The notes: generated from the sequence alone by a model not told the origin. 64,000 bases of DNA from Bacteroidales bacterium (GCA_017480785.1 JAFURZ010000005.1:16259-80258), one strand, 5' to 3'. Shown: positions 6,244 through 62,436, counted from the stretch's first letter. Program-made: numbers and translations.

Positions 6244-6252
6244 ACCCCACAA

Positions 6253-9380: not shown

Positions 9381-10124
9381 CTAGAATTCCAGTAAAGCCA
9401 AGGTGGTGCCTTCCATCAGGCTGGGTTCGGCCGGGCGGAAGAGGCTGCCGAGGAAGCTGCGGCGGCGCTCCCGTGGCTTGGCGGCAGGCTCGACCGGTTC
9501 GGGCTGCACCGGCTCCGGGGTGGCCTGCACCACCAGCTCGGATTCGGCCTCGACATCGCTCTCGATGACAGGTATCGTATCGGTGTTTTCGGGGATTTCG
9601 CCAACCGCCTCTACCTCAGCGAAATACACTTCCTCGAAGGGCGCCGTTTCTTCAATTTCGCTAACAGCCTCTTGCTGAGCCACTTCATCGCCTAATGTCT
9701 TACCACCGTGGTAAGAGTTGGTAAGGCGTTGGTAAGGCGTTGGTAAGGCGTTGGTAAGGCGTTGGGGGGCGGCCGGCCGTAAGTCGCCGTCTCTCAAGCG
9801 AGTAGTGCTGTCGGCCAATTCCAGGCCGATGGCGGCGGGGATGTCGGCCTCGGCCACCGTCACGGGCTCCTCGCCGGTAGGGACGAACCAGATGCGCACT
9901 ACGGTGCTGACAAAGAGGAGGATGCACGCTGCCGCGGCCACCCGCAACGTCCACCACCACGCACCGTGGCGGTGTTCTCTGCCCGCCTCGCTCCGTTCTC
10001 CTTGTTCCGCTGCCAGGCGGTCGAGCATGTCGCCCAGCTCCTGCTGCCGGCGCTCGTCGCGGCCGGCATGCTCGAGGGTGGCGAGCAGCTGCTCCAGGTC
10101 CAGGTTATCTCTGTTTGTTTTCAT
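9381..10124 (-). CDS. Putative anti-sigma factor (single-pass membrane protein)
   Basis: 247-aa ORF that overlaps the sigma gene stop by 20 nt. One TM helix (WWWTLRVAAAACILLFVSTVV). The position is typical of an anti-sigma partner. Contains an 11-nt x4 array. Confidence 0.6.
   Translation of the reverse strand: MKTNRDNLDLEQLLATLEHAGRDERRQQELGDMLDRLAAEQGERSEAGREHRHGAWWWTLRVAAAACILLFVSTVVRIWFVPTGEEPVTVAEADIPAAIGLELADSTTRLRDGDLRPAAPQRLTNALPTPYQRLTNSYHGGKTLGDEVAQQEAVSEIEETAPFEEVYFAEVEAVGEIPENTDTIPVIESDVEAESELVVQATPEPVQPEPVEPAAKPRERRRSFLGSLFRPAEPSLMEGTTLALLEF
9717..9765. repeat. GTTGGTAAGGC 11-nt x4 tandem array inside the anti-sigma gene
   Basis: Four perfect units at 9717-9760 plus a partial fifth. 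Translated as LTNALPTPYQRLTN. Confidence 0.9.
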
Positions 10125-10678: not shown

Positions 10679-10794
10679 CTCAATCAGAACTGAAAGGATT
10701 TATTCTCAATCAGAACTAAAAGAACTATCAGAATAGGGTCGTATTTCTTTTTGTTCTTTTAGTTCTGATTGAGATTTTGTTTCTGATTGAGATT
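10679..10794. repeat. Composite palindromic element (CAATCAGAAC / GTTCTGATTG family)
   Basis: Nested inverted repeats. Contains the complement of ttctgatagttcttttagttctgattg, the same unit found twice inside ribD. Confidence 0.8.
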
Positions 10795-17900: not shown

Positions 17901-17975
17901 ATTATTTTAAAATATTTCAAATTTAATTATGCCGCAATCCACAAAGCGCTCTTTTCCACCAGCCTTGCAATTGAA

Positions 17976-18019
17976 TTCAACTTGAGTTCGACTTGAAAAC
18001 AAGTCGAACTCAAGTTGAA
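17976..18019. repeat. 19-bp-stem palindrome, sister of 4515-4566
   Basis: ttcaacttgagttcgactt-gaaaac-aagtcgaactcaagttgaa. Confidence 0.85.
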
Positions 18020-18048
18020 CTGAAATCAACAACATGAAAAAGAGGCGG

Positions 18049-19671
18049 CTACAGCAGGTCGAGCGAGTAGTGCAGACCGACGTTCTGCCGGCGGGCACGG
18101 GCCATCTTGATGATGAGATAGGCGCAGGCGATGAGGTTGCGCAGCTCGCTGAGGGGCTCGGTGAGCACGGAGCGGTTGTAGAGGTCCTCGGTCTCGCGGA
18201 AGATGAGGTTCAGACGGTCGAAGGCGCGCTGCAGGCGCAGGTCGCTGCGCACAATGCCGACATAGTTCCACATGATTTCCTGCAGCTCCTTCTTGGTCTG
18301 CGTGATGAGCACCATCTCCTCGTTGAGCACCATGCCCTCGGCGTTCCAGTCGGGCACTTTTGAGTGGGTAGTGGATAGTGGATAGTGGGTAGCATTTGAC
18401 CCTGTGCTCCCCACTACACACTCCCCACTACACACTTGCGCTATAGCCGACATGGCTGCGTTGTGGGCATAGACCACGGCCTCGAGCAGCGAATTGGAGG
18501 CCAGGCGGTTGCCGCCATGCAGACCCGTGCAGCTGCACTCGCCGGCGGCATAGAGGTTGAGGATGGACGATTGCCCGTTGCGGTCCACCTTGATGCCGCC
18601 GCACTGGTAGTGGGCTGCCGGCCGGATGGGTATCATGTCGCGCGTGATGTCGATGCCGATGGAGAGGCATTTGGCATAGATGGTGGGGAAGCCCTCGATG
18701 AGGTGCTTCTTGCCGATGCCGCGGGCGTCGAGGTAGAGGTAGTCCTTGCCGCTGAGTTTCATCTCGTTGTCGATGGCACGGGCCACAATGTCGCGCGGGG
18801 CGAGACTCAGGCGCTCGTCGTACTTCTGCATGAACTCCTTCCCGTCGCGGTCTTTCAGCACGGCGCCGGCGCCGCGCATGGCCTCGGTGATGAGGAAGGC
18901 GGGCTTCTCGGCGGGGTTGTAGAGCGAGGTGGGGTGGAACTGCATGAACTCCAGGTCGCTCAGCACGCCGCGGGCGCGGTGCACCATGGCCACCCCGTCG
19001 CCGGTCGAGATGACGGGCGTGGTGGTGGTGCTGTACACGTTGCCCATGCCGCCGGTGGCCAGCAGGGTGACGCGGGCCAGGTAGGTGTCGATGCGGTTGG
19101 TGTCACAGTCCAAAGCATAGACGCCGTAGCACTCGATGCCCGGCGTGTGCTTGGTGACGCGCTGGCCCAGATGGTGCTGGGTGATGATGTCGATGGCGAA
19201 CTGGCGTTCCTTGAGCTCGATGTTGGGATGCCGGCGCACGGCCTCGAGCAGGCCGCGCTCTATCTCCTCGCCTGTGTTGTCCTTGTGGTGCAGGATGCGG
19301 AACTCCGAGTGGCCGCCCTCGCGGTGCAGGTCGAAGCGGTCGCCGCCTTTCCCCTCGGCGGGGACGCGGTCGAAGTTGACCCCGTACTGCACCAGCTCGC
19401 GGATACGGTCAGGAGCCTCGCGGATGGTCATCTCCACCACCTCGCGGTCACAGATGCCGTCGCCGGCCACCAGGGTGTCCTGTATGTGCTTGTCGAACGA
19501 GTCGCTGTCGTACATCACCGCAGCGATACCCCCTTGGGCGTAGCGCGTGCTTCCCTCGCTGGCATCGCCTTTGGTCAGGATGCACACCCGGCCGTAGGGA
19601 GCCACCTTCAGGGCGAAACTAAGGCCCGCTATACCCGAGCCAACAACCAAGAAATCAACTTCGTAGCGCAT
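18049..19671 (-). CDS. nadB: L-aspartate oxidase
   Basis: ORF 18049..19758 trimmed to ATG 19671 (MRYEVDFLVVGSGIAGL FAD motif), downstream of TAtaTTTG (19695-19702, minus). Also RYAQGGIAAV. Carries an in-frame heptamer hairpin. Confidence 0.95.
   Translation of the reverse strand: MRYEVDFLVVGSGIAGLSFALKVAPYGRVCILTKGDASEGSTRYAQGGIAAVMYDSDSFDKHIQDTLVAGDGICDREVVEMTIREAPDRIRELVQYGVNFDRVPAEGKGGDRFDLHREGGHSEFRILHHKDNTGEEIERGLLEAVRRHPNIELKERQFAIDIITQHHLGQRVTKHTPGIECYGVYALDCDTNRIDTYLARVTLLATGGMGNVYSTTTTPVISTGDGVAMVHRARGVLSDLEFMQFHPTSLYNPAEKPAFLITEAMRGAGAVLKDRDGKEFMQKYDERLSLAPRDIVARAIDNEMKLSGKDYLYLDARGIGKKHLIEGFPTIYAKCLSIGIDITRDMIPIRPAAHYQCGGIKVDRNGQSSILNLYAAGECSCTGLHGGNRLASNSLLEAVVYAHNAAMSAIAQVCSGECVVGSTGSNATHYPLSTTHSKVPDWNAEGMVLNEEMVLITQTKKELQEIMWNYVGIVRSDLRLQRAFDRLNLIFRETEDLYNRSVLTEPLSELRNLIACAYLIIKMARARRQNVGLHYSLDLL
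18364..18435. repeat. GTGG(G/A)TA x4 array plus CTCCCCACTACACA x2 opposing arm inside nadB
   Basis: Left arm 18364-18393, right arm 18409-18435. Read in frame (minus) as ..VCSGECVVGSTGSNATHYPLSTTHS.. Confidence 0.85.
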
Positions 19672-19787
19672 ATCGTTTCGTTTGTTCCGAGTTGCAAATA
19701 TACACAAAAAATATGAATATACACCGTAAAATATGTATTGGTTGGCCTCATTCGGCATACATATTTTTCAAATATCGAAAAAAAGAT

Positions 19788-23225: not shown

Positions 23226-23242
23226 CCTCCCCTTCACCTCCG

Positions 23243-23339
23243 CCATTTTTACGGTAGTATTACGGTAGTATTACGGTAGTATTACGCTTTAAAAGCGTAA
23301 TACTACCGTAATACTACCGTAATACTACCGTAAAAATGG
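23243..23339. repeat. ~47-bp near-perfect palindrome with TACGGTAGTAT 11-nt x3 arms
   Basis: ccatttttacggtagtattacggtagtattacggtagtattacgcttt | aaaagcgtaatactaccgtaatactaccgtaatactaccgtaaaaatgg. Confidence 0.9.
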
Positions 23340-23394
23340 TAGACCTGACATGGGGTCGAACAAAACTTTTTGCTCACGTATTAAATATTTTTTG

Positions 23395-26516: not shown

Positions 26517-26584
26517 CAAAAATACAAACTTTCTGCGACGTGACCAAATTTATTTTGCCATGTGGCTGAAATGTTGTATCTTTG
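26517..26584. promoter_or_regulatory. Back-to-back Bacteroides-type promoters (TM2 gene leftward, ribD rightward)
   Basis: Leftward TAttTTTG is the complement of 26517-26524; rightward TAtcTTTG is at 26577-26584. Central CAAA-tttat-TTTG supplies both -33 elements with 19-20 nt spacers. Confidence 0.65.
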
Positions 26585-26594
26585 CACCCTGAAA

Positions 26595-27677
26595 ATGACA
26601 CAGGAAGAGATAGACAAAAAGTATATGCGGCGCTGCCTGCAGCTGGCAGCCAACGGACTGGGTCGCGTGAGGCCCAACCCGTTGGTGGGGTGCGTGGTGG
26701 CGAGGCAAACGGAGAGTGGAGAGTGGAGAGTGGAGAGTGAAGGTTACCACCAATACTATGGCGGATGGCACGCCGAGCGCAACGCACTATTGCGTGCAAG
26801 CCAACTTTCAACTTTCAACTCTCAACTTTCAACTTTATATGTCAACCTCGAGCCCTGCTCGCACTACGGCCACACGCCACCCTGCGCCGACCTCATCATC
26901 GAGAAGGGCATCCGCCGGGTGGTCTGCTGCAACGACGACCCCAACCCCCTGGTGGCGGGGGGCGGCTTCCGCAAGCTGGAGGCCGCCGGCATCGAGGTGG
27001 TGCGTCACGTGCTCGAAGCGGAGGGCCGCGAACTGAACCGCCGCTTCTTCACCTTCATGGAGCAGCAGCGGCCCTACGTCATCCTCAAGTGGGCCGAGAG
27101 CAAGGACGGCTACATGGCGCCAAGCCCTAATTCTCAATCAGAACAAAAAGAAAATTCTGATAGTTCTTTTAGTTCTGATTGCAATAAAAAATACTGGCTC
27201 AGCACGCAGGAGCAGAACCGCCTGAACCACCGCTGGCGCACCGAGGAGGCCGCCATCCTCGTGGGCAGTGAGACCTTCCTGCGCGACCACCCCTCGCTCA
27301 CGGCACGCCACTACCTCGGTTCACAGCCGCAGCCCGTGGTGCTCGACCGCCGCGGACGCTTACTATCCCAATCAGAGGTTATTTCTCAATCAGGACTAAA
27401 AGAAAGTTCTGATAGTTCTTTTAGTTCTGATTGCAACAAAAGAGAATGGCTGGTTCTGCGGAGCCAGACCATCCCCGAGGTGCTGCATGCACTCTACGAG
27501 CACAAGCTGCAGAGCGTCATCGTCGAGGGCGGCCGCCAGATGCTGGACGCCTTCATCGAGAGCGGCCTCTACGACGAGGTGCGCATCCTCCGCAGCCTGC
27601 AGACCCTCGGCAGCGGCCTCAAGGCTCCCGCCATCCCGCCCATCGCCCCCAACCGCCTAATCATCATCGAGCCATGA
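26595..27677 (+). CDS. ribD: Bifunctional riboflavin biosynthesis deaminase/reductase RibD
   Basis: ORF 26562..27677 trimmed to ATG 26595, 10 nt after TAtcTTTG. Motifs RPNPLVGCVV, HAE, LEPCSHYGHTPPC and the reductase motif VIVEGGRQMLDAFIESGLYDEV. Confidence 0.9.
   Translation: MTQEEIDKKYMRRCLQLAANGLGRVRPNPLVGCVVARQTESGEWRVESEGYHQYYGGWHAERNALLRASQLSTFNSQLSTLYVNLEPCSHYGHTPPCADLIIEKGIRRVVCCNDDPNPLVAGGGFRKLEAAGIEVVRHVLEAEGRELNRRFFTFMEQQRPYVILKWAESKDGYMAPSPNSQSEQKENSDSSFSSDCNKKYWLSTQEQNRLNHRWRTEEAAILVGSETFLRDHPSLTARHYLGSQPQPVVLDRRGRLLSQSEVISQSGLKESSDSSFSSDCNKREWLVLRSQTIPEVLHALYEHKLQSVIVEGGRQMLDAFIESGLYDEVRILRSLQTLGSGLKAPAIPPIAPNRLIIIEP
26711..26738 (+). repeat. GGAGAGT x4 heptamer array inside ribD
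   Basis: Four perfect units read as ESGEWRVES. Confidence 0.9.
26803..26837 (+). repeat. AACTTTC x5 heptamer array inside ribD (imperfect inverse of 26711-26738)
   Basis: Units aactttc x2, aactctc, aactttc, aacttta. Read as QLSTFNSQLSTL. Confidence 0.9.
27127..27190 (+). repeat. In-frame palindromic element copy 1 inside ribD
   Basis: aatcagaacaaaaagaa...ttctgatagttcttttagttctgattgcaa. Reads PNSQSEQKENSDSSFSSDCNKK. Confidence 0.85.
27368..27445 (+). repeat. In-frame palindromic element copy 2 inside ribD
   Basis: caatcaggactaaaagaa...ttctgatagttcttttagttctgattgcaa (30 nt identical to copy 1). Reads SQSEVISQSGLKESSDSSFSSDCNKRE. Confidence 0.85.
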
Positions 27678-31412: not shown

Positions 31413-34130
31413 ATGAAAAAGATGAAAAAAGGTCTGTTGCTGCTTGTCGCGGCCCTGTCGATAGCCACTGGCGCCCAGGCGCAGAAGAGCATCGCCCAGA
31501 AGGCCGACGACCTGTTCGACCAAAACCGCTTCGTGGAGGCCCTGGACCAATACACCAAGGCCTACGAGCGCATCAAGGACAACAAAGCCGAGAAGAACCG
31601 CCTCTACTTCCAGATGGCCGAGTGCTACCGGCTGATGTACGACTATCCCCGCGCCGAGCGCATATACAAGCGGTTGGCCAACGAAGGCTATGCCAACACC
31701 GAGCGCAAACTGTACTTCAACCTGGCGGAGATGTGCCGCTTCGAGGAGAAATTCGAGGAAGCCGACGAATACTACGGCAAGTATCTCGAGATGGAGCCGT
31801 CGGACAGCTATGCCGCCAAGCGGCGGGCCTCACTGCTGTATGCCAACCAGCTGTCAATCAACCGTACGCGCCACGAGATTGCGAAGATGGAAGAGTGGAG
31901 CAGCGACTACAACGACTGGGCGCCCCGCTTCGTCGGCGAGGACACCACCAAGCTGATATTCACCACCTCGCGCTTCGCCGAGGGCGAAGGACAGGGGGCC
32001 GACCCGTGGACCAACCAGGCTTTCTCCGACCTCTACCAGGTGTTTCAGGACCGCAACGGCCGCTGGACGAGCACTCCCGAACCCTTCGACAAGAGCGGCA
32101 AGATAAACACGATGGTCAATGAAGGCGAGCCCTGCTTCTCACCCGACGGCAACACCATCTACTTCACCCGCTGCGACGTGCGCGAGAAGGAGACCCTCGG
32201 CTGCCGCATCTACACCGCCTCGCGCGCCGTGGCGGCACCGGAGAAAAAGAAGAAGAAAACACCCGCCAAGAAGACCCAGACGGCCAAGGGCAAGAAGGGT
32301 GCATCCAACGACAAGCAGGCGGCCGCCAACGAGACGCCCGACGGTGAATGGAGCGAGCCCGTCATGCTGGTGCTGGGCGACTCGGCCTACAACTACCTCT
32401 ACCCCGCCGTGAGCAGCGACGGGCTGACGCTGTACTTCAGCAGCGACATGCCGGGCGGCTTCGGCGAGTACGACCTGTGGAAAGCCACCCGCAAGAGCAC
32501 TGCCGACGACTTCGGCCGCGCCGTCAACCTGAGTTCCATCGTGAACACCCCGGGCCGCGAGGTGATGCCGCTGCTGCGCACCGACTCGCTGCTCTACTTC
32601 TCGTCCGACGGTCATCCCGGCGTGGGCGGCCAGGACCTCTTCGTCACGCGCCTGCAGCGCAACGGCAAGTTCGATGTGCCCCAGAACATGGGGGTGCCCA
32701 TCAACTCGTCGTACGATGAGATGTCGATTGTGTTCTATCCCGTGGTGGGCGCCGGAAGCAACCTGCTGGAGCGCGGCTACTTCTCGTCGAACCGCCCCTT
32801 TGCCGACCCGCACAACAAGAACATCGCCAACCAGAACAAGAGCAAAACGGCCCCCATCAACGACGACCTCTACTACTTCGAATTGCCGGGGCTGAACTAC
32901 TCCATCGAAGGCATCGTGCGCGACGAGAAGTCGATGCAGCTGATGCAGGACGTGCGCGTGCGCCTCGTCGGCTCGGACGGCACCGAGAAGGAGGTGCGCA
33001 CCGACAAGCGGGGCTTCTACAAGTTCGACAGCACTGTGGTGCACCGCGACGTCATCTACAAACTCTACCTCTCGAAGAAGAACTACTACAGCATCGAGGG
33101 CTCGGAGAGCACCAAGGGATACAACAATAACAAATACATCAAGCACGACTTCCGCATGGACCCCGTGCCGCGCACACCGGTGGTGCTGCCCGAGATACGC
33201 TTCGACCTGGCCCGTACCGAGCTCAAGGGCGAGTTCATGGACTCGCTGATGGACCTGCTCATCGTCATGGAGAACAACCCCGGCCTGGTGGTGGAGATAC
33301 GCTCGCACACCGACTGCCAGCCCTATGTGGGCCTGACCAACGACACCCTCTCGCAACGCCGTGCACAGACAGTGGTCGACTACCTGGCCAACCGCGGCAT
33401 CGAGCGTGAACGGCTGGTAGCCAAGGGCTATGCCGACCGCGTGCCGCGCGTGCTCGACGAGGACATGACCGTCGTGCTCAACGGCAAGCCCTACACCTTC
33501 CTGAAAGGCACCGTGATGGATTGCGACTACATAGCCACCCTCAGCGGCGACCGGCAGCAGGCGGCCCACTCGCTCAACCGGCGCATTGAGTTCCTCGTGC
33601 TGCGTGACGACTACGTGTCGCGCCGCGAGATAGACAACATGACGCATCCCACCGACGGCAAGGTGGTCAACCTGGTCGACAACGAGCTGGAAGACCTCGA
33701 CCGCATCCAGCAACCCACCATCATACACGACGAGACCACCATCCCCGTCACCATGATTAACGCCACCCGTGGCGAAATCAACTGCATCATCAACAGCGCC
33801 CAGCAGATGCCCATGCTCATCGACGAGCGCTACCCCGAACCCATCGCCATCGCCTGGGAGGAGGCCATGAACCTGCTCTACCAGCAGCGCATCACCAAGG
33901 AGGACTTCCCGCTGCGCGACGAGAGTTTCGACCCCGAGGGCAACATCGTGGACCGTGCCACCTTGGTGTTCAAGGAGATGCAGATTGGCGAGCAGCGGCA
34001 GCGCAACGTCGAGGTGGTGGTGATGAAAGGCATCGACTACAAGTTCATCATCAACCGCACGGGTCTGCGCCAGTTTGGCGAGTATGAATTCGACAAGCAG
34101 CGCGCCAAGCTCATTTTCTTTGATGAGTAA
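31413..34130 (+). CDS. OmpA-family protein with PorE-like domain order (TPR, PD40 propeller, CarboxypepD_reg, OmpA_C) plus C-terminal extension
   Basis: 905-aa ORF with a signal peptide. PD40-like repeats (CFSPDGNTIYFTR, PAVSSDGLTLYFSSD, LYFSSDGHPGVGGQDLF), IEGIVRDEKSMQLMQDVRVRLVGSDG, and OmpA_C VVEIRSHTDCQPYVGLTNDTLSQRRAQTVVDYL. The PorE assignment is inference. Confidence 0.75.
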   Translation: MKKMKKGLLLLVAALSIATGAQAQKSIAQKADDLFDQNRFVEALDQYTKAYERIKDNKAEKNRLYFQMAECYRLMYDYPRAERIYKRLANEGYANTERKLYFNLAEMCRFEEKFEEADEYYGKYLEMEPSDSYAAKRRASLLYANQLSINRTRHEIAKMEEWSSDYNDWAPRFVGEDTTKLIFTTSRFAEGEGQGADPWTNQAFSDLYQVFQDRNGRWTSTPEPFDKSGKINTMVNEGEPCFSPDGNTIYFTRCDVREKETLGCRIYTASRAVAAPEKKKKKTPAKKTQTAKGKKGASNDKQAAANETPDGEWSEPVMLVLGDSAYNYLYPAVSSDGLTLYFSSDMPGGFGEYDLWKATRKSTADDFGRAVNLSSIVNTPGREVMPLLRTDSLLYFSSDGHPGVGGQDLFVTRLQRNGKFDVPQNMGVPINSSYDEMSIVFYPVVGAGSNLLERGYFSSNRPFADPHNKNIANQNKSKTAPINDDLYYFELPGLNYSIEGIVRDEKSMQLMQDVRVRLVGSDGTEKEVRTDKRGFYKFDSTVVHRDVIYKLYLSKKNYYSIEGSESTKGYNNNKYIKHDFRMDPVPRTPVVLPEIRFDLARTELKGEFMDSLMDLLIVMENNPGLVVEIRSHTDCQPYVGLTNDTLSQRRAQTVVDYLANRGIERERLVAKGYADRVPRVLDEDMTVVLNGKPYTFLKGTVMDCDYIATLSGDRQQAAHSLNRRIEFLVLRDDYVSRREIDNMTHPTDGKVVNLVDNELEDLDRIQQPTIIHDETTIPVTMINATRGEINCIINSAQQMPMLIDERYPEPIAIAWEEAMNLLYQQRITKEDFPLRDESFDPEGNIVDRATLVFKEMQIGEQRQRNVEVVVMKGIDYKFIINRTGLRQFGEYEFDKQRAKLIFFDE

Positions 34131-34134
34131 CACA

Positions 34135-34203
34135 GTGGATAGTGGGCAGTGGGTAGTGGGTAGCACACGTGGTCAGCAGCTACCCACTACCCACTACCCA
34201 CTA
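34135..34203. repeat. GTGGGTA x4 / TACCCAC x3 hairpin between the PorE-like stop and the miaA core
   Basis: gtgggtagtgggtagc (34149-34164) pairs perfectly with gctacccactacccac (34179-34194). Confidence 0.9.
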
Positions 34204-35106
34204 ATAACTATTCTAGGGCCCACGGCGACCGGCAAGACGGCCCTGGCGGCCGAGGTGGCCTACCGGCTGAACGGCGAGATAATCAGCGCCGACTCGCGTC
34301 AGGTGTTCCGCGGCATGGACCTCGGCACCGGCAAGGACCTGGCCGACTACGACCTGCACGGCGTCCACGTGCCCCACCACCTGATTGACATCTGCGACCC
34401 GCGCGAAGAATACTCCGCCTACCGTTTTGTGAACGACTTCCGGCGGGCCTACGAGGACATCACCGCCCGCCACCGGCAGCCCATACTCTGCGGCGGCACG
34501 GGTCTCTACCTTGACGCCATCCTGCGGGAGTACCACCTCAGCGACGCCCCCGTCAACCCCGCTTACCGCGCCTCGCTCGAGTCCTACAGCGACGAGGAGC
34601 TCACCGAACGGCTGGCCTCCTACGGCCCACTGCACAACCACACCGACACCGAGACCCGCGAACGGCTGCTGCGGGCACTGGAGATTGCCGAGTATGCCCG
34701 CCTCCACCCCGACCGCTATGCCCGTCTGCCCGAGATGGAGCACCGCGTGTTCGGCATGGCGCTGGAGCGCCAGCAGGTAATCGACCGCATCGGGCGGCGC
34801 CTGCGGCGCCGCCTCGACGAAGGCATGACCGCCGAGGTGCAGCGACTGTTGGACGAAGGCATCCCCGCCGAACGCCTGATGCGCTTCGGGCTGGAATACC
34901 GCCACGTGACCCGCTATCTGCTGGGCCAATGCACCGAGGAGGAGATGTTCCGCGACCTCTTCACCGACATACGCCGCTTCGCCAAGCGCCAGATGACCTG
35001 GTTCCGCCGCATGGAGCGCAACGGCGTGGCCATCCGCTGGCTCGATGCCTCACGCCCCGTGTCCGAGCTGGCCGACGAGGTGGCCAACGGCTCATATCAC
35101 CAATAG
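34156..35106 (+). CDS. miaA: tRNA dimethylallyltransferase
   Basis: ORF 34075..35106 overlaps the upstream gene. The conserved core begins ILGPTATGKTALA, followed by SADSRQVFRGMDLGTGK. There is no ATG; the nearest in-frame start, GTG 34156, lies inside a hairpin repeat, so the 5' end is uncertain. Confidence 0.85.
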   Translation: MGSTRGQQLPTTHYPLITILGPTATGKTALAAEVAYRLNGEIISADSRQVFRGMDLGTGKDLADYDLHGVHVPHHLIDICDPREEYSAYRFVNDFRRAYEDITARHRQPILCGGTGLYLDAILREYHLSDAPVNPAYRASLESYSDEELTERLASYGPLHNHTDTETRERLLRALEIAEYARLHPDRYARLPEMEHRVFGMALERQQVIDRIGRRLRRRLDEGMTAEVQRLLDEGIPAERLMRFGLEYRHVTRYLLGQCTEEEMFRDLFTDIRRFAKRQMTWFRRMERNGVAIRWLDASRPVSELADEVANGSYHQ

Positions 35107-37790: not shown

Positions 37791-37912
37791 CCGACCATTG
37801 CACCGACCGGGCCGCTTTGCCCGCCGGAAGCATCGAACAAGGCCCGGGGAAAGGTCGACACAATCCCCTGTCCCCACATCCTCAGGGTTTTCAACTGCTG
37901 TTCTTCGGTCGT

Positions 37913-37971
37913 TTTACGGTAGTATTACGCTTTTTTCTCGAAGAACAGTAAAAGAACAGTAAAAGAACAAC
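37913..37971. repeat. Composite of the TACGGTAGTAT unit and GTAAAAGAACA units
   Basis: ttttacggtagtattacgctttt (matches an arm of 23243-23339) followed by agaacagtaaaagaacagtaaaagaaca. Confidence 0.75.
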
Positions 37972-47146: not shown

Positions 47147-50100
47147 ATGGTTAGAAGAATCTACGTAGAGAAGAAATCCCCCTATGCCGTGAAGGCGAAG
47201 GAGCTCAAGACCGAAATGAGCGAATACCTCGGCATCGAAGCCGACGTGGTACGCGTGCTGGTGCGCTACGACGTGGAGAATGTCAGCGACGCCACCTTCC
47301 ACACCGCGCTGACCACCGTCTTCAGCGAGCCTCCGGTGGACGACGTGTACCTCGAAGAGTTTCCCCGCAAGGAGAACGACTTCTGCTTCACCGTGGAGTA
47401 CCTCCCCGGCCAGTTCGACCAACGGGCCGACAGCGCCGAGCAGTGCGTCTGCCTCCTCAACGACGCCGAGCACCCCATCATCAAGTCTGCCACCACCTAC
47501 GTCATCTCTGGAGTGGATAGCGGGAAGTGGAAAGAGGACAGCGACTGGCAATCGGCCATCATCGCCCACTGCGTCAATCCGGTCGACAGCCGCCGTGCCG
47601 ACGGTCCCAAACCAGACACCCTCGAGGACCACTTCGACGAGCCTGCCGACGTCATCACCTTCGACGGCTTCAAGGACATGCCCGAGCCGCAGCTGAAAAG
47701 CCTTTACGACGGCCTCGGACTGGCCATGACCTTCGCCGACTTCCTGCACATCCAGCGCTACTTCCACGACGAGGAGCACCGCGACCCCACGATGACCGAA
47801 ATCCGCGTCCTCGACACCTACTGGAGCGACCACTGCCGCCACACCACCTTCGCCACCGAGCTGAAGGACGTCCGCTTCGACGACGGCTTCTACCGCCCCC
47901 TCATCGAGGGCGCCTTCCGGCAGTACCTCGCCGACCACCGCGAGCAGTATGCCGGACGCACCGACAAGTACGTCTGCCTGATGGATATCGGCACCCTGGC
48001 GGCCAAACGGCTCAAGAAAGCCGGCTACCTCGACGACCAGGAGCCCAGCGACGAAATCAACGCCTGCTCCATCGTGGTGCCCGTCACCATCGACGGCAAC
48101 CGCGAGGAGTGGCTCATCAACTTCAAGAACGAGACCCACAACCACCCCACCGAGATTGAGCCCTTCGGCGGCGCGGCCACCTGCCTCGGCGGCTGCATCC
48201 GCGACCCGCTCAGCGGCCGCACCTACGTCTACCAGGCCATGCGCGTCACCGGCGCCGCCGACCCCACCAAGCCCCTCAGCGAGACCCTCCCCGGCAAGCT
48301 GCCCCAGCGCAAGATTGTCACCACCGCCGCCCGCGGCTACTCCAGCTACGGCAACCAGATAGGCCTCGCCACAGGGCTAGTCAACGAGATATACCATCCC
48401 AACTACGTAGCCAAGCGCCTGGAGATAGGCGCCGTCATCGCCGCCGCCCCGCGCCGTGCCGTGAAGCGCCTCACCTCCGACCCGGGCGACGTCATTATCC
48501 TGCTTGGTGGCCGCACCGGCCGCGACGGCATCGGCGGCGCCACGGGTGCCTCGAAGAGCCACACCAGCAAGTCGCTCACCACCTGCGGCGCCGAGGTGCA
48601 GAAGGGCAACGCCCCCACCGAACGCAAGATACAACGCCTCTTCCGCCGCGAAGAGGTCAGCAGCCTCATCAAGAAGTGCAACGACTTCGGCGCCGGCGGC
48701 GTCAGCGTGGCCATCGGCGAACTGGCCGACGGACTCCAAATCAACCTCGACCGCGTACCCAAGAAGTATGCCGGCCTCGACGGCACCGAACTCGCCATCA
48801 GCGAGAGCCAGGAGCGCATGGCCGTGGTGGTCGACCCCAAGGATGTGGACCAGATGCTGCGCTACGCCGACGAGGAGAACCTCGAAGCCACCGTCGTGGC
48901 CACCGTCACCGAGGAGCCCCGCATGGTCATCTCTTGGCGCGGCAAAGAGATAGTGAACCTCAGCCGCCGCTTCATCGACACCAACGGCGCCCACCAGGAA
49001 ACCACCGTGAAGGTGAAGATGCCCGAGAAAATTGAAAATGGAAAATTGAAAATTGAAAATTCGCTGCCGCACCCGGATAATTCTCAATTCTCAACTCTCA
49101 ATTCTCAATTGAAGGACCTTTGGTTCCAGACCCTCTCCGACCTCAACGTCTGCTCGCAGAAAGGCCTCGTCGAGATGTTCGACAGCTCCATCGGCGCCGG
49201 CAGCGTGGTGATGCCCTTCGGCGGCCGCTACCAGCTGACGCCCACGCAGTGCATGATAGGCAAGCTGCCCCTCCTGGACGGCAAGTGCGACACCGTGACC
49301 CTCATGTCCTACGGCATGGACCCCTACCAGACCTCGTGGAGTCCCTTCCACGGCGCCGCCTATGCCGTGCTCGGCAGCGTGGCCAAGATTGCCGCCGCCG
49401 GCGGCGACGTCAGCCGCGTGCGCCTCACCTTCCAAGAATACTTCAAGAAACTGGGCACCGACCCCTACCGCTGGGGCGAGCCCTTCACCGCCCTCCTCGG
49501 CGCCTACCACGCCCAGATGGGCCTCCACCTACCCGCCATCGGCGGCAAGGACTCCATGTCCGGCACCTTCAACGACATCGACGTGCCGCCCACCTTCTGC
49601 TCCTTCGCCGTCGGCGTCAGCGACCTGCAGCACGTCGTCACCCCCGAGCTGAAGAAAGCCGGCAACCGGCTGGTGCTGCTCGATGTCAAGGAGGACCAGT
49701 ACGGCATGCCCGACTATGCCGACGCCCTCAACCAGTACGCCGCCCTGCACCGCGCCGTCGAGGCCGGCCGGGTGTGCAGCGCCTATGCCCTCGGCATGGG
49801 CGGCATCGTCGAGGCCGTCAGCAAGATGGCCTTCGGCAACAAGCTGGGCGTCCGCATGGCCCCCGTGCCCGAGACATCAGCCTCGGGTCTCGCCGCCAAG
49901 CACTATGGCTGGCTTGTCGTCGAGGTAGCCGGCACAGAAGAGCTGCCCTTCCGCTGCACCGGGATTGGCGAGGTCACCGCCGAGCCCGTGTTCGAGGTGG
50001 CCGGCGAGAAGATAAGCCTCGACGAGGCCCTCGCCGCATGGCAGAAGACGCTCGAAGGCGTCTTCCCCACCCGTAGCACCCAGCAAGCGGAAAGTGGAAA

Positions 50101-50977
50101 GTGGAAAGTGGAAAGCGCTCTGTACAACACTCCGAAGGAGAAACTTTCAACTTTCAACTATCAACTTTCAAGTTCCGCGAAGCCGAGAGTCTTCATCCCC
50201 GCCTTCCCCGGCACCAACTGCGAGTACGACTCGGCCCGCGCCTTCAACCGCGCCGGTGCCGAGAGCGAAATCATCGTCTTCCGCAACCAGAACGGCCAGC
50301 AGATTCGCGAGAGCGTGGACGCCTATGTCGACGCCATCCGCCGCAGCCAGATTATCATGCTGCCCGGCGGCTTCAGTGCCGGCGACGAACCCGAAGGCAG
50401 TGCCAAATTCATCACCAGCGTCTTCCGCAACCCCAAGATTGCCGACGCCGTGATGGAGCTGCTCCAGAAGCGCGACGGCCTCATGCTGGGCATCTGCAAC
50501 GGCTTCCAGGCCTTGGTGAAGCTCGGCCTGGTGCCCTACGGCGAGATACGTCCGCAGGCCGCCGACGCCCCCACGCTGACCTTCAACACCATCGGCCGCC
50601 ACCAGAGCAAGATGGCCTACACCCGCGTCAGCTCCAACCTCAGCCCCTGGCTGCGCAAGGCCGAACTCGGCGCCACCTACGTCATTCCCATCTCGCACGG
50701 CGAGGGCCGCTTCGTGGCCCCGCAGGAATGGATTGACAGCCTCTTCCGGAACGGACAGGTGGCCACACAGTACTGCGACCTCGACGGCAACCCCACCATG
50801 GACGAGGAGTACAACATGAACGGCTCCTACTGCGCCATCGAAGGCATCACCAGCCCCGACGGACGCGTCTTCGGCAAGATGGGACACAGCGAACGCCGCA
50901 GCAAAGGCAGCGCCCTCAATATCTATGGCAACGACGACCAGCAGATATTCGAGAGCGGCGTACAGTACTTCAAGTAG
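47147..50977 (+). CDS. purL: Phosphoribosylformylglycinamidine synthase (single-chain)
   Basis: 1276-aa ORF with NHPTEIEPFGGAATCLGGCIRD, a repeated AIR-synthase-like core and a C-terminal glutaminase (GICNGFQAL, SHGEGR). Two in-frame heptamer hairpins. Confidence 0.97.
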   Translation: MVRRIYVEKKSPYAVKAKELKTEMSEYLGIEADVVRVLVRYDVENVSDATFHTALTTVFSEPPVDDVYLEEFPRKENDFCFTVEYLPGQFDQRADSAEQCVCLLNDAEHPIIKSATTYVISGVDSGKWKEDSDWQSAIIAHCVNPVDSRRADGPKPDTLEDHFDEPADVITFDGFKDMPEPQLKSLYDGLGLAMTFADFLHIQRYFHDEEHRDPTMTEIRVLDTYWSDHCRHTTFATELKDVRFDDGFYRPLIEGAFRQYLADHREQYAGRTDKYVCLMDIGTLAAKRLKKAGYLDDQEPSDEINACSIVVPVTIDGNREEWLINFKNETHNHPTEIEPFGGAATCLGGCIRDPLSGRTYVYQAMRVTGAADPTKPLSETLPGKLPQRKIVTTAARGYSSYGNQIGLATGLVNEIYHPNYVAKRLEIGAVIAAAPRRAVKRLTSDPGDVIILLGGRTGRDGIGGATGASKSHTSKSLTTCGAEVQKGNAPTERKIQRLFRREEVSSLIKKCNDFGAGGVSVAIGELADGLQINLDRVPKKYAGLDGTELAISESQERMAVVVDPKDVDQMLRYADEENLEATVVATVTEEPRMVISWRGKEIVNLSRRFIDTNGAHQETTVKVKMPEKIENGKLKIENSLPHPDNSQFSTLNSQLKDLWFQTLSDLNVCSQKGLVEMFDSSIGAGSVVMPFGGRYQLTPTQCMIGKLPLLDGKCDTVTLMSYGMDPYQTSWSPFHGAAYAVLGSVAKIAAAGGDVSRVRLTFQEYFKKLGTDPYRWGEPFTALLGAYHAQMGLHLPAIGGKDSMSGTFNDIDVPPTFCSFAVGVSDLQHVVTPELKKAGNRLVLLDVKEDQYGMPDYADALNQYAALHRAVEAGRVCSAYALGMGGIVEAVSKMAFGNKLGVRMAPVPETSASGLAAKHYGWLVVEVAGTEELPFRCTGIGEVTAEPVFEVAGEKISLDEALAAWQKTLEGVFPTRSTQQAESGKWKVESALYNTPKEKLSTFNYQLSSSAKPRVFIPAFPGTNCEYDSARAFNRAGAESEIIVFRNQNGQQIRESVDAYVDAIRRSQIIMLPGGFSAGDEPEGSAKFITSVFRNPKIADAVMELLQKRDGLMLGICNGFQALVKLGLVPYGEIRPQAADAPTLTFNTIGRHQSKMAYTRVSSNLSPWLRKAELGATYVIPISHGEGRFVAPQEWIDSLFRNGQVATQYCDLDGNPTMDEEYNMNGSYCAIEGITSPDGRVFGKMGHSERRSKGSALNIYGNDDQQIFESGVQYFK
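49027..49110 (+). repeat. GAAAATT x5 / AATTCTC x4 inverted heptamer arrays inside purL
   Basis: Left arm 49027-49061, right arm 49079-49110. Reads KIENGKLKIENSLPHPDNSQFSTLNSQL. Confidence 0.9.
50089..50171 (+). repeat. GGAAAGT x4 / AACTTTC x4 inverted heptamer arrays inside purL
   Basis: Left arm 50089-50116, right arm 50142-50171. Reads ESGKWKVESALYNTPKEKLSTFNYQL. Confidence 0.9.
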
Positions 50978-59057: not shown

Positions 59058-62000
59058 CTAATGGTGGATTACGAGTGTTTGATGGGCACGTCCGGTGGCT
59101 GTCACGAGCCGTAGCAGGTAGACACCGTCGGGGAGGGACGGGAAGCGGTAGGTGGCGGGGGCTACATGGCGCGTCGAGAAACAGAGGCGGCCGTAGAGGT
59201 CGAGCACCTGCAGTTCACCCTGCCCGCCGCCGTCCACCGTCACCGTGCCGTTGCACGGGTTGGGGAAGACATGCAGCGACGGCAGGCCGGGCTGCACTAT
59301 GCCGAGCCGGGTGCTGTCGCCAAACCAGCCATAGGCCGAATCCCACAGCGCCAGCGGAAGCCTCACGTCGTCAATCCACGCACAGTCGCTGCCGGCCGAG
59401 CCGCTCTCGTCCTTCACATAGCGCCACCGCAGCGTGTGGCGGCCGGCGTCGAGCACCGTCGTGTAGCATTTCCATCCGGCTTCGCCCCACCGTTCGTTGC
59501 CGCGCCGCACGCCGTCGACCGAGAAGAGCAGCTTGTCATACTGCGCCTCGCTCGACACCCGCGACCAGTAGCTGAGCGTGTCGCGTTGGGGGAGCAGCAC
59601 CTCGAGGACGAGGTCCGAGGTCTGGCGGTAGTCGATGGCACCGCTGCGCACGCTGAAGCGGCCGCTGTGACTCACCGTGCTATCCACCACCCACGGCTGC
59701 GTGCCGCCCTGTTGCCACGGATAGCTGGCGAAGCCCTCCTCGAAGCTGTCGGCCCGTTGGCCGCCGACCATGTACCAGTCGTAGTCCCTGCGGTGGTTGC
59801 CCAGCGCGACGGAGGCCTGCAGGTGCAGGTGGGTCAGGGTGTCGTCGGGGGTGGAGAATGGAGAGTGGAGAGTGGGGAGTGGAGAGCGGAAAGTGGAAAG
59901 CGTATCGCCCGAAGGGAGTGCGGTGAGGCCGAGGCTCACGCTGTCGCACGACCCCTCGACGGTGGTCTGAAGCAAGTATGTGTGCATCGGCAGCAAGCGG
60001 TTTGTCTCGCTGCTGTCGGCCTCCAGCAGGCGGACCGAGAGTTCGGGATAGCGAGGTTCCAGCCGCCCTTGCAGCCTGATGCAGCACAGCATCCCCTCGA
60101 TGCTGTCCCAGGCGAAGAGGTACGCCTGCCAGCCCGGCTGCTGTCCCACGGCAACCAGCTGCAACGGCACCGCCACCCGACGACTCTGGTGCGGCAGCAG
60201 GGTGTCGACCACCGTCTGTTGCTCTGCGACCAAGGCGTCGGCAGCACTGTCGGCATCAATCTGCGACAGCACCACCCGCAGGCCGTAGAGCGGCACCGCG
60301 CCCACGTTCTCCACGCGGCACTCCACCACGCTGTCGCCGACCGTCACTTCACGCAGCGCCACCCCAGTGCCTTCGGCAGCCGCCACAGTCAGCGTGTCAA
60401 TCCGCGGCCGGTGGTGACGGGCTGTGGCCGTGAGGACGAGCAGCGAGGTGTCGACCGACTGACCGAGCTGCAACGCCAGCAGTCCGTCGGGACCCATCAC
60501 GCCCATGCCCAGCACCGTGTCGTGCTGCATGGCCGTGACCGTACAGCCCGGCGTGCCGCCCAGATGCAGCGTGCCCGCGCCGTCAGTCGGCTGCCCGTTG
60601 GTCAGGTGCAGCTCGAGGGGCTGCGGAACACCCACCCAAGGCTCGAGCGACGGGTCTCCCAGCAGGCAGTAGGTCTCCCAGTAGAACTTGTCGTAGGGCG
60701 ACCCCACCGCCGTGACCGCCAGGTTGCCGGCCGTCAGCAGCTCGCCTTGGCTGTGCACCCCACCCGTGCGGCCCAGCCACCGGTCGAACGGACCGGGGCG
60801 CAGGCTGTCGTACTGCGGCGTGAGGCTCAGCGGGAGCTTCGGCCCCACGGCCCAGTAGTAGTCCTCGTCCCAGAGGGTGGAGTTGGTGGCGCCGATGACG
60901 CCGATGGCGCCGCCGTCGGCCTTGCGCAGCAGCTGCTCGCCGAAGCAGGTGCCGTCGAAGGCGTTGCTCAGGCAGCAGTTGTTCACGTAGAGGAGCGGCT
61001 GCGGGTTGTCGAGGGTGTCGATGCTGGTGAAGGTCACCGACGGACTGGTCCAGCCGGCGGAGGTGCAATGGGCCGTATAGTTGAGCAAGGCCACGCCGCG
61101 GCGCAGGTCGCCGAGGATGGCCGGCCGTTGGTCGGCCGAGGCGGGGTTGTGGTAACACAGGGTGTCGAGGAAGGGATGCGCCAGACGTGCCTCACGCGCC
61201 ACATAGTCCACCTGCCCGTTGGTGGTCACCGGTGCCGGCGCGCGGTCTTCGCTTCCGGCCACCAGCAGCAGGCGCTTCAGGCGTGCAGTGTCGATGTCGG
61301 CGCCCTGCTCGTAGCGGATGCACTTACGCACCACGGCGCCCAGCTCGGCGGTGTCGTTCACCGGCCAGCGGCCCAGCAACGCGTCGGGCAGGTAGTCGCC
61401 CGTGAACTCGGCATAGTAGAGGTCGGTGACGTGGTTGCCGAGGCCGGTGGGATGTGTGGTGCCCGGGAAAGCCTGCAGCAGCGCCACATCGCCCACCAGC
61501 AGCACGTGGCGCGGTCCACGGCTGCCGTCGGCGCTCCAGAGGGGGCGCATCAGGGCCTTCACGCTGTCGCGCAGGTGGGTGTCGACATAGAGCTCCATCA
61601 CCTCGAAGCCCTGCTGCCGTTTCCAGCGTACAAAAGGCTGCAATCCTTCGCGGAACAGCGGCCGCGACACAACCAGATAGCCATGGGTGCCAAGCGACGG
61701 GGAGGCGGCCTTGCCGACATGCAGCAGCGCGTCGACCGAGGTATCGCACTCCAGAAGGCCGTCCACGGGCCGGTAGCCCACGGGGCGCACCGTCACCCGG
61801 AACAGCTGCTCTGCTCCCATCACGCCGAGGAGCTCCACCTCCACCCGCCCGCCGCCGCGGTAAAGGTCGCCGGAGCCATACACCTTCGCGTCGGGACAGT
61901 AGTCGGGCGGCAGCCCGTCCTTGACCCATCCCTCCGTCACCGGTGCCAGGGGGCGGCCCTGCGGCACGACATCCATCGACACGGTGCCGGTCGACCGCAC

Positions 62001-62377: not shown

Positions 62378-62436
62378 CTGTTCTTTTACTGTTCTTTTAC
62401 TGTTCTTTTACCGTTCTTTACAAATTCGTAAAGAAC
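62378..62436. repeat. CTGTTCTTTTA x3 tandem units followed by a hairpin
   Basis: ctgttcttttactgttcttttactgttctttta + ccgttctttac-aaattc-gtaaagaac. Confidence 0.8.

What the first reader, a model, noticed from the sequence alone, without database searches (positions are those of the whole stretch)
49027..50171. Two inverted heptamer-array hairpins translated inside purL
Element 1 has (GAAAATT)x5 at 49027-61 facing (AATTCTC)x4 at 49079-110 and reads KIENGKLKIENSLPHPDNSQFSTLNSQL. Element 2 has (GGAAAGT)x4 at 50089-116 facing (AACTTTC)x4 at 50142-171 and reads ESGKWKVESALYNTPKEKLSTFNYQL. Element 2 lies just before the glutaminase domain (PRVFIPAFPGTNCEYD), probably in an interdomain linker. The arms belong to the same GARARTK unit family seen in ribD and the PorU-like gene. 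In element 1 the arm mismatches are A:C on the sense strand, which would be G:U on the antisense RNA.
Basis: seen in the sequence. Interest (0 to 1): 0.7.

Follow-up and report, generated by a model that had tools for sequence, protein, structure and literature searches.

The report
Translated heptamer-repeat hairpin elements in purL
Two short DNA palindromes whose arms are runs of 7-base repeats sit in frame in the flexible linkers of an essential purine-synthesis enzyme; at least the first is a copy of a widespread, apparently undescribed repeat family of gut Bacteroidales that usually lies just behind genes but is sometimes translated as harmless extra linker peptide.

Summary
purL (47147-50977, +) holds (GAAAATT)5/(AATTCTC)4.6 at 49027-49110 and (GGAAAGT)4.4/(AACTTTC)4.3 at 50085-50171. 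Both are in frame and lie in the mid-protein and pre-glutaminase linkers.

Element 1 is a copy of a dispersed family. Several copies in unrelated places share its 17-nt loop, sometimes inverted. About 30% lie in ORFs of housekeeping enzymes, in one frame (..ENGKLKIEN-loop-NSQFSILNSQ..), with the arm's TGA changed to GGA, TCA or TTA. The rest lie just 3' of genes and often supply the stop codon. Cultured Parabacteroides distasonis and Bacteroides finegoldii carry it.

Element 2 is an older, decayed relative. It is shared by many orthologs and has no significant RNA hairpin.

In this Bacteroidales clade PurL has four such hypervariable sites. Unit numbers vary, and near-identical strains swap whole cassettes by short-patch recombination. 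One MAG has purL frameshifted by the loss of one heptamer unit.

Best reading: REP/RPE-like passenger elements with slippage-prone arms, translated as tolerated linker. This is a new variant of a known kind. The route of spread and any function are unknown.

The parts
47147..50977 (+). purL, single-chain FGAM synthase, 1276 aa, the host gene
   Evidence: ORF. TIGR01857 at 1741 bits, AIRS_C aa 446-597, GATase_5 aa 1012-1275. The identical protein is on 8 contigs.
49027..49061 (+). Element 1 left arm, (GAAAATT)x5. Unit 2 is GAAAATG, which removes the only in-frame TGA. The arm ends where the next in-frame TGA would fall.
   Evidence: Codon reading: GAA AAT GGA in place of GAA AAT TGA. The same fix, or TCA or TTA, is seen in other in-ORF copies.
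49062..49078 (+). Element 1 loop CGCTGCCGCACCCGGAT, translated SLPHPD. It is the family's recurrent 17-nt loop.
   Evidence: The same loop or its reverse complement occurs in unrelated loci: L089, L114, L192, L160, L203, L085, L207. It occurs once in the window.
49079..49110 (+). Element 1 right arm, (AATTCTC)x4.6 with one AACTCTC unit
   Evidence: It pairs with the left arm with one A:C per unit on the sense strand, which is G:U on the antisense strand.
50085..50115 (+). Element 2 left arm, (GGAAAGT)x4.4, translated ESGKWKVES
   Evidence: It is conserved as (V/A)ESGK(W/C/M)KVES with A/T-ending codons in many orthologs.
50116..50141 (+). Element 2 spacer, translated ALYNTPKEK
   Evidence: Orthologs read PLFKASAP or similar.
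50142..50171 (+). Element 2 right arm, (AACTTTC)x4.3 with one AACTATC unit, translated LSTFNYQLS
   Evidence: Orthologs carry AACTTTC, AACATTC or ACGCATTCACACATT arrays, homogenised within each species.
47510..47554 (+). Decayed third array in purL (site A): AGTGGAT AGCGGGA AGTGGAA AGAGGAC AGCGACT.., translated GVDSGKWKEDSDWQS
   Evidence: Orthologs have intact (AGTGGAA)n here (L013 7917-7946, L040 7913-7947), or a short array-free loop (GKLTEEQRQA).
26711..26836 (+). Arrays of related units in ribD: (GGAGAGT)x4 and (CAACTTT)x5, both in frame
18363..18436 (-). In-frame AGTGGRT/CCCCACT heptamer hairpin in the interdomain linker of the nadB-like gene
59852..59900 (-). Single (GTGGAGA)x7 array in frame in the PorU-like C25 peptidase gene

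Best explanation
Both features are in-frame copies of small palindromic repeat elements whose two arms are short tandem arrays of a 7-nt unit.

Element 1 is a fairly intact copy of a dispersed family with this layout: (GARAATT)n, then a loop of about 17 nt (consensus GCTGNCGCANNCGGAT, either orientation), then (AATTYTC)n. The family is common in gut and rumen Bacteroidales. Its usual place is immediately 3' of a gene. There the ATTGA in the arm gives a TGA in all three frames for a reader entering from either side, and it often supplies the gene's stop codon. The hairpin there probably acts as a terminator or 3'-end structure.

A copy can survive inside a gene only under four conditions. It must sit in a permissive surface loop or interdomain linker. 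Its length must keep the frame. It must be read in the one workable frame. Its in-frame TGA must be removed by a point change. Element 1 meets all four, and it is translated as a hydrophilic 28-aa linker peptide.

Element 2 is an older element of the same general kind, with AGTGGAA/AGTTGAA arms. It is inherited by many species of the clade. Its arms have drifted apart, so it no longer folds.

After arrival the arms gain and lose units by replication slippage, and units are homogenised within an arm. The loop can flip by recombination between the arms. Whole linker cassettes move between strains by short-patch homologous recombination.

Shown here: the anatomy, the dispersal, the context rules, the TGA fixes, unit-number variation, cassette exchange and the linker positions. 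Inferred: the copy-and-paste route (no transposase identified), the terminator role of extragenic copies, and neutrality of the purL copies.
For: Dispersal. It gave 80 distinct elements in unrelated flanks. Several share element 1's loop or its reverse complement.

Copies in ORFs. 23-24 of the 80 lie inside long ORFs, all in the same orientation and frame. The TGA is changed to GGA, TCA or TTA (my count from the peptides: about 12, 6 and 5). By Pfam the hosts are a class-I aminoacyl-tRNA synthetase, RlmN, CarA, DNA polymerase I, HPPK, peptidase M3, MazG and a MiaB-like enzyme. In CarA and the MiaB-like enzyme the copy lies between domains.

Extragenic copies. Flanking genes are tandem or convergent in 31 cases and divergent in 1. 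Copies lie within about 20 nt of the stop codon, and many ORFs end ..KIEN* inside the arm.

Cultured species. P. distasonis has copies after pyrI and after a DUF3332 gene. B. finegoldii has one in frame in MurF/Alr, WP_022275210.1.

Lineage. Period-7 arrays occur at 0-2.6 per 10 kb in most of the Bacteroidales PurL loci. Only 2 arrays were found in the roughly 55 other PurL loci, which are mostly Lachnospiraceae.

Hypervariable sites in PurL. There are four. Alleles at the same site include arrays of different 7- and 9-nt units.

Slippage. The GTGGTCA arm has 13.4 units in L004 and 4.4 in L012 and L013. P0153 has one more 9-nt unit than P0152. In L207 the right arm is one unit shorter than in the window, and purL is frameshifted.

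Cassette exchange. P0207 and P0208 differ by 5 isolated residues plus the whole site-2 cassette. In DNA the swapped tract is about 145 nt, with dense synonymous changes in its conserved flanks, against about 2.7% background divergence.

Hairpin strength. The coding copies in the window fold weakly as DNA (-9 to -17 kcal/mol), against -27 and -54 for two other array hairpins in the window (34128-34210 by miaA, and intergenic 23240-23340). In-ORF copies have weaker sense-strand RNA hairpins than extragenic copies of equal length (-11.2 against -19.2 kcal/mol, p = 1e-5).
Against: No transposase, target-site duplication or empty site was found, so mobility rests only on shared arms and loop in unrelated contexts.

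For element 2, no copy of the whole element was seen outside purL in the roughly 1.5 Mb held. It could have arisen in place.

Element 1 is the longest perfectly identical stretch (98 nt, 49016-49113) between two purL genes that are 84.5% identical, with 71.6% identity at third codon positions. A purely neutral passenger inherited vertically would not show this. It needs either recent short-patch exchange or constraint on the nucleotide sequence.

In ribD two inverted arrays flank 62 nt of essential coding sequence (the HAE zinc motif). That cannot be one inserted hairpin.
Confidence: 0.68

Rival explanations
1. Element 1, and possibly other in-ORF copies, is kept for a nucleic-acid function inside purL. 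The strong antisense-strand hairpin would stop or process antisense transcripts. Alternatively a DNA or RNA structure would tune purL transcription or translation.
For: The antisense RNA hairpin is -38.9 kcal/mol, z -6.4. The 98-nt perfect identity with the L081 ortholog is the longest identical run in the gene and is sharply bounded, 11 nt upstream and 3 nt downstream of the arrays. AT-rich codons persist in a gene whose GC3 is 0.88. In-ORF copies are weakened specifically on the sense strand but barely on the antisense strand.
Against: Most orthologs, including strains more than 90% identical to carriers, have other cassettes or none at this site, so the hairpin is dispensable for purL. Extragenic copies show no preference for the strand that gives G:U pairing (31 against 27). 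No terminator-like site was scored here. Element 2 has no significant fold in any species. Short-patch recombination, shown, can explain the identical tract.
Confidence: 0.12
2. There is no mobile element. The arrays arose in place by slippage in linkers that tolerate any hydrophilic low-complexity peptide, and the inverted arrangement arose by template switching between nearby arrays. The similarity between loci is convergence.
For: Every allele at the four PurL sites is built from some 7- or 9-nt repeat. Single arms without a partner are common: panC, the PorU-like gene, PurL sites A and C. The ribD arms flank essential sequence. The ancestral site-2 sequence ATCAACTTCAAG resembles the AACTTTC unit. 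Element 2 was not found elsewhere as a whole.
Against: A 17-nt non-repetitive loop is shared, with the same arms, by copies in unrelated genes and spacers. Convergence does not produce that. The same few unit families recur although most 7-mers would be stop-free. This rival stays plausible for element 2 and for single arms, but not for element 1.
Confidence: 0.13
3. The heptamer arrays act as contingency (phase-variation) switches. Gain or loss of one unit frameshifts purL and turns it off reversibly.
For: The unit length is not a multiple of 3 and the array lies inside an ORF. In MAG GCA_017419885.1 (L207) the same element has one right-arm unit fewer. There purL is split into two ORFs with a TTGA stop/start overlap. 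Several database PurL fragments end at or near these sites.
Against: There is one frameshifted example, from a metagenome bin, with no read-level support. With only 4-5 units, slippage rates are expected to be low. The hosts are housekeeping enzymes, not the surface or restriction genes typical of contingency loci. The window allele was identical in the two contigs whose DNA was compared, and the same protein sequence was called on 8 contigs.
Confidence: 0.05
4. Assembly or sequencing artefact.
For: Short repeats can break or collapse assemblies. Some contigs do end at these arrays.
Against: The same protein sequence was assembled on 8 contigs, and the DNA of the two contigs read (two samples) is identical. 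Orthologous elements occur in many independent MAGs and in cultured genomes. The arrays (about 35 nt) are shorter than a read.
Confidence: 0.01

Closest known systems
Rickettsia palindromic elements (RPE)
   Same: A dispersed palindromic repeat family, many copies of which are inserted in frame in unrelated housekeeping genes and translated as an extra peptide at permissive sites (review PMC10969869; PMC3733652).
   Different: Different phylum. Much shorter (about 60-95 nt against about 150 bp). The arms are tandem 7-nt repeats of variable number. The arm carries a stop in all frames that has to be mutated. No sequence relation was tested or is expected.
REP/REPIN elements, including REPs located inside ORFs (Di Nocera et al. 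2013, PMC3733652)
   Same: Short hairpin repeats, mostly just 3' of genes between tandem or convergent ORFs. They sometimes supply the stop codon and sometimes lie inside genes. G:T pairing occurs in the stems.
   Different: There is no GTAG or CGTC tag. The stems are AT-rich tandem arrays rather than 7-12 bp GC-rich stems. No RAYT association is known.
Heptanucleotide long simple sequence repeats: Xanthomonas GGGAATC, cyanobacterial STRR/GGGGAYT, Beggiatoaceae TAACTGA
   Same: Lineage-specific over-representation of tandem 7-nt units with variable copy number. In Xanthomonas 70-75 pairs lie in convergent (inverted) orientation (PMC4692102). Slippage is the proposed driver, and translation of heptamers as 7-aa repeats has been discussed (PMC4679880).
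   Different: Those repeats are reported as mainly intergenic and under-represented in coding regions. They have no conserved loop. The G-quadruplex logic does not apply here, as there are no G-tracts. Here a defined arm-loop-arm unit is dispersed and often translated.
MITEs giving in-frame fusions (e.g. Coxiella QMITEs, PMC5896051; review PMC3184786)
   Same: Small non-autonomous inverted-repeat elements that can add peptide segments to host proteins.
   Different: No terminal inverted repeats related to a known IS, no target-site duplication seen, and a smaller size.

Membership tests
RPE-like in-frame palindromic repeat (functional analogy) | Many dispersed copies of one element in unrelated genomic contexts | tested here: met
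Element 2 type: not found outside purL.
RPE-like in-frame palindromic repeat (functional analogy) | Copies inserted in frame in intact genes of unrelated function | tested here: met
   23-24 in-ORF copies, with hosts confirmed by Pfam. In the window: purL, ribD, nadB-like, panC, PorU-like.
RPE-like in-frame palindromic repeat (functional analogy) | Sequence homology to Rickettsia RPE-1 to RPE-10 | not tested
   No RPE sequences were on hand. Homology is not expected given size and taxon, so I claim analogy only, not membership.
REP / REPIN (RAYT-mobilised) | GTAG or CGTC tetranucleotide tag at one end of the hairpin | tested here: not met
   Element ends read AATTGA...TCAATT in all copies listed.
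REP / REPIN (RAYT-mobilised) | Location mainly 3' of genes, between tandem or convergent ORFs | tested here: met
   (+,+) 12, (+,-) 11, (-,-) 8, (-,+) 1.
REP / REPIN (RAYT-mobilised) | Associated RAYT (Y1 transposase) gene in the genome | not tested
   Only 64 kb of this genome is available, and I did not scan all its ORFs.
MITE | Target-site duplication flanking the element | tested here: inconclusive
   No consistent duplication is visible in the flanks, but the repetitive ends make the boundaries ambiguous.
MITE | Terminal inverted repeats matching a parent insertion sequence | not tested
   No IS comparison was possible with these tools.
Heptanucleotide long SSR (Mrazek-type LSSR) | Tandem 7-nt units, 3 or more copies, more frequent than chance | tested here: met
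   11 observed against 0.1 expected. TRF rows.
Heptanucleotide long SSR (Mrazek-type LSSR) | Copy-number polymorphism between related genomes | tested here: met
   13.4 against 4.4 units. 4.6 against 3.6 units. One extra 9-nt unit.
Contingency locus (SSR phase variation) | Observed on/off frameshift variants at the repeat within a population | tested here: inconclusive
   One frameshifted allele, in L207. No read-level data.
PARCEL (palindromic amphipathic repeat coding element) | 25-residue amphipathic motif in long tandem tracts in ORFs of unassigned function, many membrane-targeted | tested here: not met
   Here a single arm-loop-arm unit of about 28 aa sits in cytoplasmic enzymes. PARCEL definition from PMC2996958.

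The most novel reading that the evidence does not exclude
Heptamer-arm hairpins are an active class of self-expanding mobile elements in Bacteroidales. They spread by an unrecognised mechanism. Extragenically they serve as two-way stop modules, with a translational stop in all frames plus a hairpin. Once domesticated inside ORFs they make housekeeping genes such as purL reversibly switchable or splittable through changes of one unit. The L207 allele would be an example: purL is split at the mid-protein linker with a TTGA stop/start overlap.
Probability: 0.12. Interest if true: 0.8.

Novelty: new variant of a known kind. Interest (0 to 1): 0.56.

Why it matters
Three reasons.

1. It points to a repeat family that is abundant in major gut and rumen Bacteroidales, including cultured P. 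distasonis and B. finegoldii. The family is unannotated in RefSeq and absent from Rfam. I could not find it in the searchable literature.

2. It gives a second, independent system beside the Rickettsia RPEs in which selfish or structural DNA repeats are routinely translated inside essential enzymes. It also leaves a readable trace of the filter for survival: one frame, one orientation, three alternative TGA fixes, linker positions.

3. Practically, these arrays break metagenome assemblies, inflate apparent protein divergence in linkers and can create frameshifted 'pseudogenes'. They could also serve as strain markers.

Tried and rejected
1. Structure prediction of PurL aa 201-1276 from 43 close homologs gave mean pLDDT 43. 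It was unusable, so insertion sites were mapped by Pfam, NCBIfam and PDB sequence alignment instead.

2. A protein search with the element-1 peptide failed. The first query was too short.

3. Rfam has no family at gathering threshold. Only sub-threshold generic hairpin matches to miRNA precursor models appear on the minus strand.

4. I tested whether the G:U asymmetry marks a transcribed strand. Extragenic copies are 3' of genes on either strand about equally (31 against 27), so there is no support. The scan pattern itself imposed the GAAAATT/AATTCTC asymmetry, so the orientation bias of in-ORF copies (23-24 against 1) may simply reflect avoidance of the Phe-rich reading of AATTTTC.

5. Sigma-70 promoter-like hits inside element 1 were ignored, because that consensus does not fit Bacteroidetes.

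6. I looked for target-site duplications and for conserved sequence beyond the arms. None were seen.

7. I looked for whole copies of element 2 elsewhere in the held DNA. They occur only in purL orthologs.

8. An NJ tree of PurL did not group carriers of the same cassette. This fits recombination, but the tree is poorly resolved.

9. Phage and plasmid BLAST found only partial matches. The 'plasmid' hits look like chromosomal pieces of Parabacteroides and Bacteroides.

10. Literature searches for the arm strings found nothing relevant.


Full report
**What is in the sequence**

The ORF at 47147-50977 (+) encodes a 1276-aa single-chain FGAM synthase. It matches TIGR01857 at 1741 bits against a cut-off of 1057. 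Pfam places AIRS_C at aa 446-597 and GATase_5 at aa 1012-1275.

Tandem Repeats Finder reports four period-7 arrays inside it:
- GAAAATT x5.0 at 49027-49061
- AATTCTC x4.6 at 49079-49110
- GGAAAGT-type x4.4 at 50085-50115
- AACTTTC x4.3 at 50142-50171

The window holds 11 period-7 arrays of at least 3 copies, against 0.1 in dinucleotide shuffles, and 4 period-11 arrays against 0.

The same protein was assembled on 8 contigs. The two contigs I read, from different samples, are base-identical to the window over purL. Misassembly is therefore excluded.

**Hairpin potential**

Element 1 pairs with one A:C per unit on the sense strand and one G:U per unit on the antisense strand. As RNA the antisense strand folds at -38.9 kcal/mol (z -6.4) and the sense strand at -17 (z -0.9).

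Element 2 has one G:A or C:T mismatch per unit. As RNA it does not beat shuffles on either strand (z about -1.6). The same is true of its orthologs.

As DNA, both purL elements fold weakly, at -9 to -17 kcal/mol. Two other array hairpins in the same window reach -54 (23240-23340) and -27 (34128-34210).

**A detail that shows DNA came first**

A perfect GAAAATT array has a TGA in every frame. In purL the only in-frame TGA is removed by the single variant unit GAAAATG, so the codons read GAA AAT GGA. The arm stops exactly where the next in-frame TGA would fall.

**Position in the protein**

Element 1 (aa 628-655) follows the first half of the synthetase part. Alignments to Thermotoga PurL end at aa 609-624.

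Element 2 (aa 982-1007) lies between the end of the PurL-subunit-like part (about aa 968) and the start of GATase_5 at aa 1012. Both are interdomain linkers.

An AlphaFold model was too poor to use, with pLDDT 43.

**The clade**

The gene belongs to uncultured Bacteroidales. The nearest genome records are rumen and herbivore-gut MAGs and 'bacterium P3'.

Orthologs at 84-88% identity vary in length from 1241 to 1299 aa. Almost all the variation is at four sites: aa ~121-135, 627-655, ~905-920 and 975-1010.

The alleles at these sites are built from 7- or 9-nt repeats of several kinds:
- GTGGTCA/CACTGAA hairpins
- GGAGAGT single arms
- AATCTGAAT-type 9-mers
- KPI-type 9-mers, and others

The window itself has a decayed AGTGGAA array at the first site, 47510-47554.

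Period-7 arrays occur at 0-2.6 per 10 kb in most of the Bacteroidales PurL loci (L001-L017, L021, L040, L081). Only two arrays were found in the roughly 55 other PurL loci, which are mostly Lachnospiraceae.

**Turnover**

Unit number differs between relatives:
- 13.4 against 4.4 GTGGTCA units
- one extra 9-nt unit in P0153 compared with P0152

Right-arm units at site 2 are homogenised within species but differ between them: AACTTTC, AACATTC, and others.

Within clusters at 90% identity or more, array-bearing clusters vary in length, while two clusters (P0050, P0077) show almost no length variation.

Near-identical proteins differ by whole cassettes. P0207 and P0208 have 5 isolated differences plus the entire site-2 cassette. 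At the DNA level that swap is a tract of about 145 nt. It has dense synonymous differences in its conserved flanks, against about 2.7% background divergence. That is the signature of short-patch homologous recombination rather than transposition.

**Element 1 belongs to a dispersed family**

I scanned metagenome contigs for GAAAATTGAAAATT, then 8-38 nt, then AATTCTCAATTCTC.

Several copies carry element 1's loop GCTGCCGCACCCGGAT, its reverse complement, or close variants such as GGCTGACGCGGACAAT. A second recurrent loop family also exists.

Of the 80, 23-24 lie inside long ORFs. All have the same orientation and frame (..ENGKLKIEN-loop-NSQFSILNSQ..). The arm's TGA is changed to GGA, TCA or TTA (my count from the peptides: about 12, 6 and 5).

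Pfam confirmed these hosts: a class-I aminoacyl-tRNA synthetase, RlmN, CarA, DNA polymerase I, HPPK, peptidase M3, MazG and a MiaB-like enzyme. In CarA and the MiaB-like enzyme the element lies between domains.

The other copies lie just 3' of genes. Flanking genes are tandem or convergent in 31 cases and divergent in 1. Many ORFs end ..KIEN* with the stop codon supplied by the arm. Examples are the rpsB-tsf spacer of a common human-gut species and an ilvB-like gene.

In-ORF copies have weaker sense-strand RNA hairpins than extragenic copies of the same length: -11.2 against -19.2 kcal/mol, p = 1e-5. On the other strand the difference is small.

Cultured Parabacteroides distasonis and Bacteroides finegoldii carry the family. 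One copy is in frame in the annotated MurF/Alr protein WP_022275210.1. None of the copies I looked at is annotated as a repeat.

**Element 1 across purL orthologs**

The closest ortholog (L081, 88% aa and 84.5% nt identity) has element 1 with no difference. The 98-nt run 49016-49113 is the longest identical stretch in the gene, the next being 68 nt. Third-position identity overall is 71.6%.

A third lineage (L207, GCA_017419885.1) has the identical left arm, including GAAAATG. Its loop is inverted and its right arm is one unit shorter. This frameshifts purL into two ORFs that overlap by TTGA.

L007 has a decayed version that keeps the loop core GCTGCCGC.

**Interpretation**

The best-supported reading is a REP/RPE-like passenger. 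It is a small palindromic element with slippage-prone heptamer arms, normally found behind genes. It is occasionally fixed inside genes where a linker tolerates it and the frame and stop problems are solved.

Element 1 is a fairly young or recently exchanged copy. Element 2 is an old, decayed relative that may even have arisen in place.

The sharp 98-nt identity fits either short-patch exchange, which is demonstrated elsewhere in this gene family, or constraint on the nucleotide sequence. I cannot separate the two.

How the family spreads is unknown. I found no transposase, no target duplication and no empty site.

**Comparison with what is known**

In-frame palindromic repeats are known from Rickettsia RPEs, and REPs inside ORFs are known. 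Heptanucleotide repeats, including convergent pairs in Xanthomonas, are known but described as mainly intergenic.

No Rfam family matches. Searches of the paper library for the arm sequences found nothing relevant.

I therefore rate it a new variant of a known kind.

Noticed in passing
window 26562-27677 (ribD), arrays 26711-26739 and 26802-26836; 27155-27179 and 27405-27431: In ribD, inverted heptamer arrays (GGAGAGT)x4 and (CAACTTT)x5 flank 62 nt that encode the conserved deaminase HAE zinc motif (..ESGEWRVESEGYHQYYGGWHAERNALLRASQLSTFNSQLST..). This cannot be one inserted hairpin. The same gene also carries two in-frame copies of a 9-mer-based element (..SDSSFSSDCNK..), which also occurs intergenically at 10709-10794.
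   Followed up: partly
window 18363-18436 (nadB-like ORF 18049-19758, minus strand): An AGTGGRT/CCCCACT heptamer hairpin is translated (..CSGECVVGSTGSNATHYPLSTTH..) between the FAD_binding_2 and Succ_DH_flav_C domains. Similar peptides occur at PurL site 1 of other species (P0099) and in a metagenome protein (L154).
   Followed up: partly
window 5848-5877 (panC), 59852-59900 (PorU-like C25 peptidase), 34134-34203 (5' end of miaA): More heptamer arrays in or at genes. There is a single CTACCCA arm in panC, by my recollection of PanC structure at about its domain hinge (not tested). There is a single (GTGGAGA)x7 arm in the PorU-like gene. A near-perfect AGTGGGT/CTACCCA hairpin at miaA is either a 5' leader or an N-terminal extension.
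   Followed up: partly
window 23245-23333; also 1206-1229, 37906-37969, 62378-62419, 9713-9765: Arrays of 11-nt units (TTACGGTAGTA, CTGTTCTTTTA, TGGTAAGGCGT). One is a perfect 89-nt palindrome (DNA fold -54 kcal/mol, z -17) 20 nt after a gene end. Their units contain stops, and most lie between genes (9713-9765 overlaps a weakly supported ORF).
   Followed up: partly
window 4510-4565 and 17960-18020: Two copies of another palindromic repeat, with arms made of two AGTTCGACTTG-like units around GAAAACAAG.
   Followed up: no
window 6252-6299 (-) and 6401-6447 (+): Two matches above the gathering score to Rfam Acido-Lenti-1 (43.3 and 40.4 bits), in inverted orientation, in a spacer full of small GC-rich hairpins downstream of panC.
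   Followed up: no
L207 1690-1800 (GCA_017419885.1, JAFOKH010000136.1): purL is split into two ORFs inside an element-1-type hairpin that has one right-arm unit fewer than the window. The stop and the next start overlap as TTGA, which could allow coupled translation of two half-proteins.
   Followed up: partly
loci L025-L080: Outside its own clade, this Bacteroidales PurL (TIGR01857 type) is closest, at about 65% identity, to PurL of Lachnospiraceae and other Firmicutes. This hints at an old horizontal transfer of the gene.
   Followed up: no
proteins P0134, P0147, P0196, P0157, P0213: Several database PurL fragments end at or near one of the array sites. This suggests that these repeats, or strain heterogeneity at them, break metagenome assemblies.
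   Followed up: no
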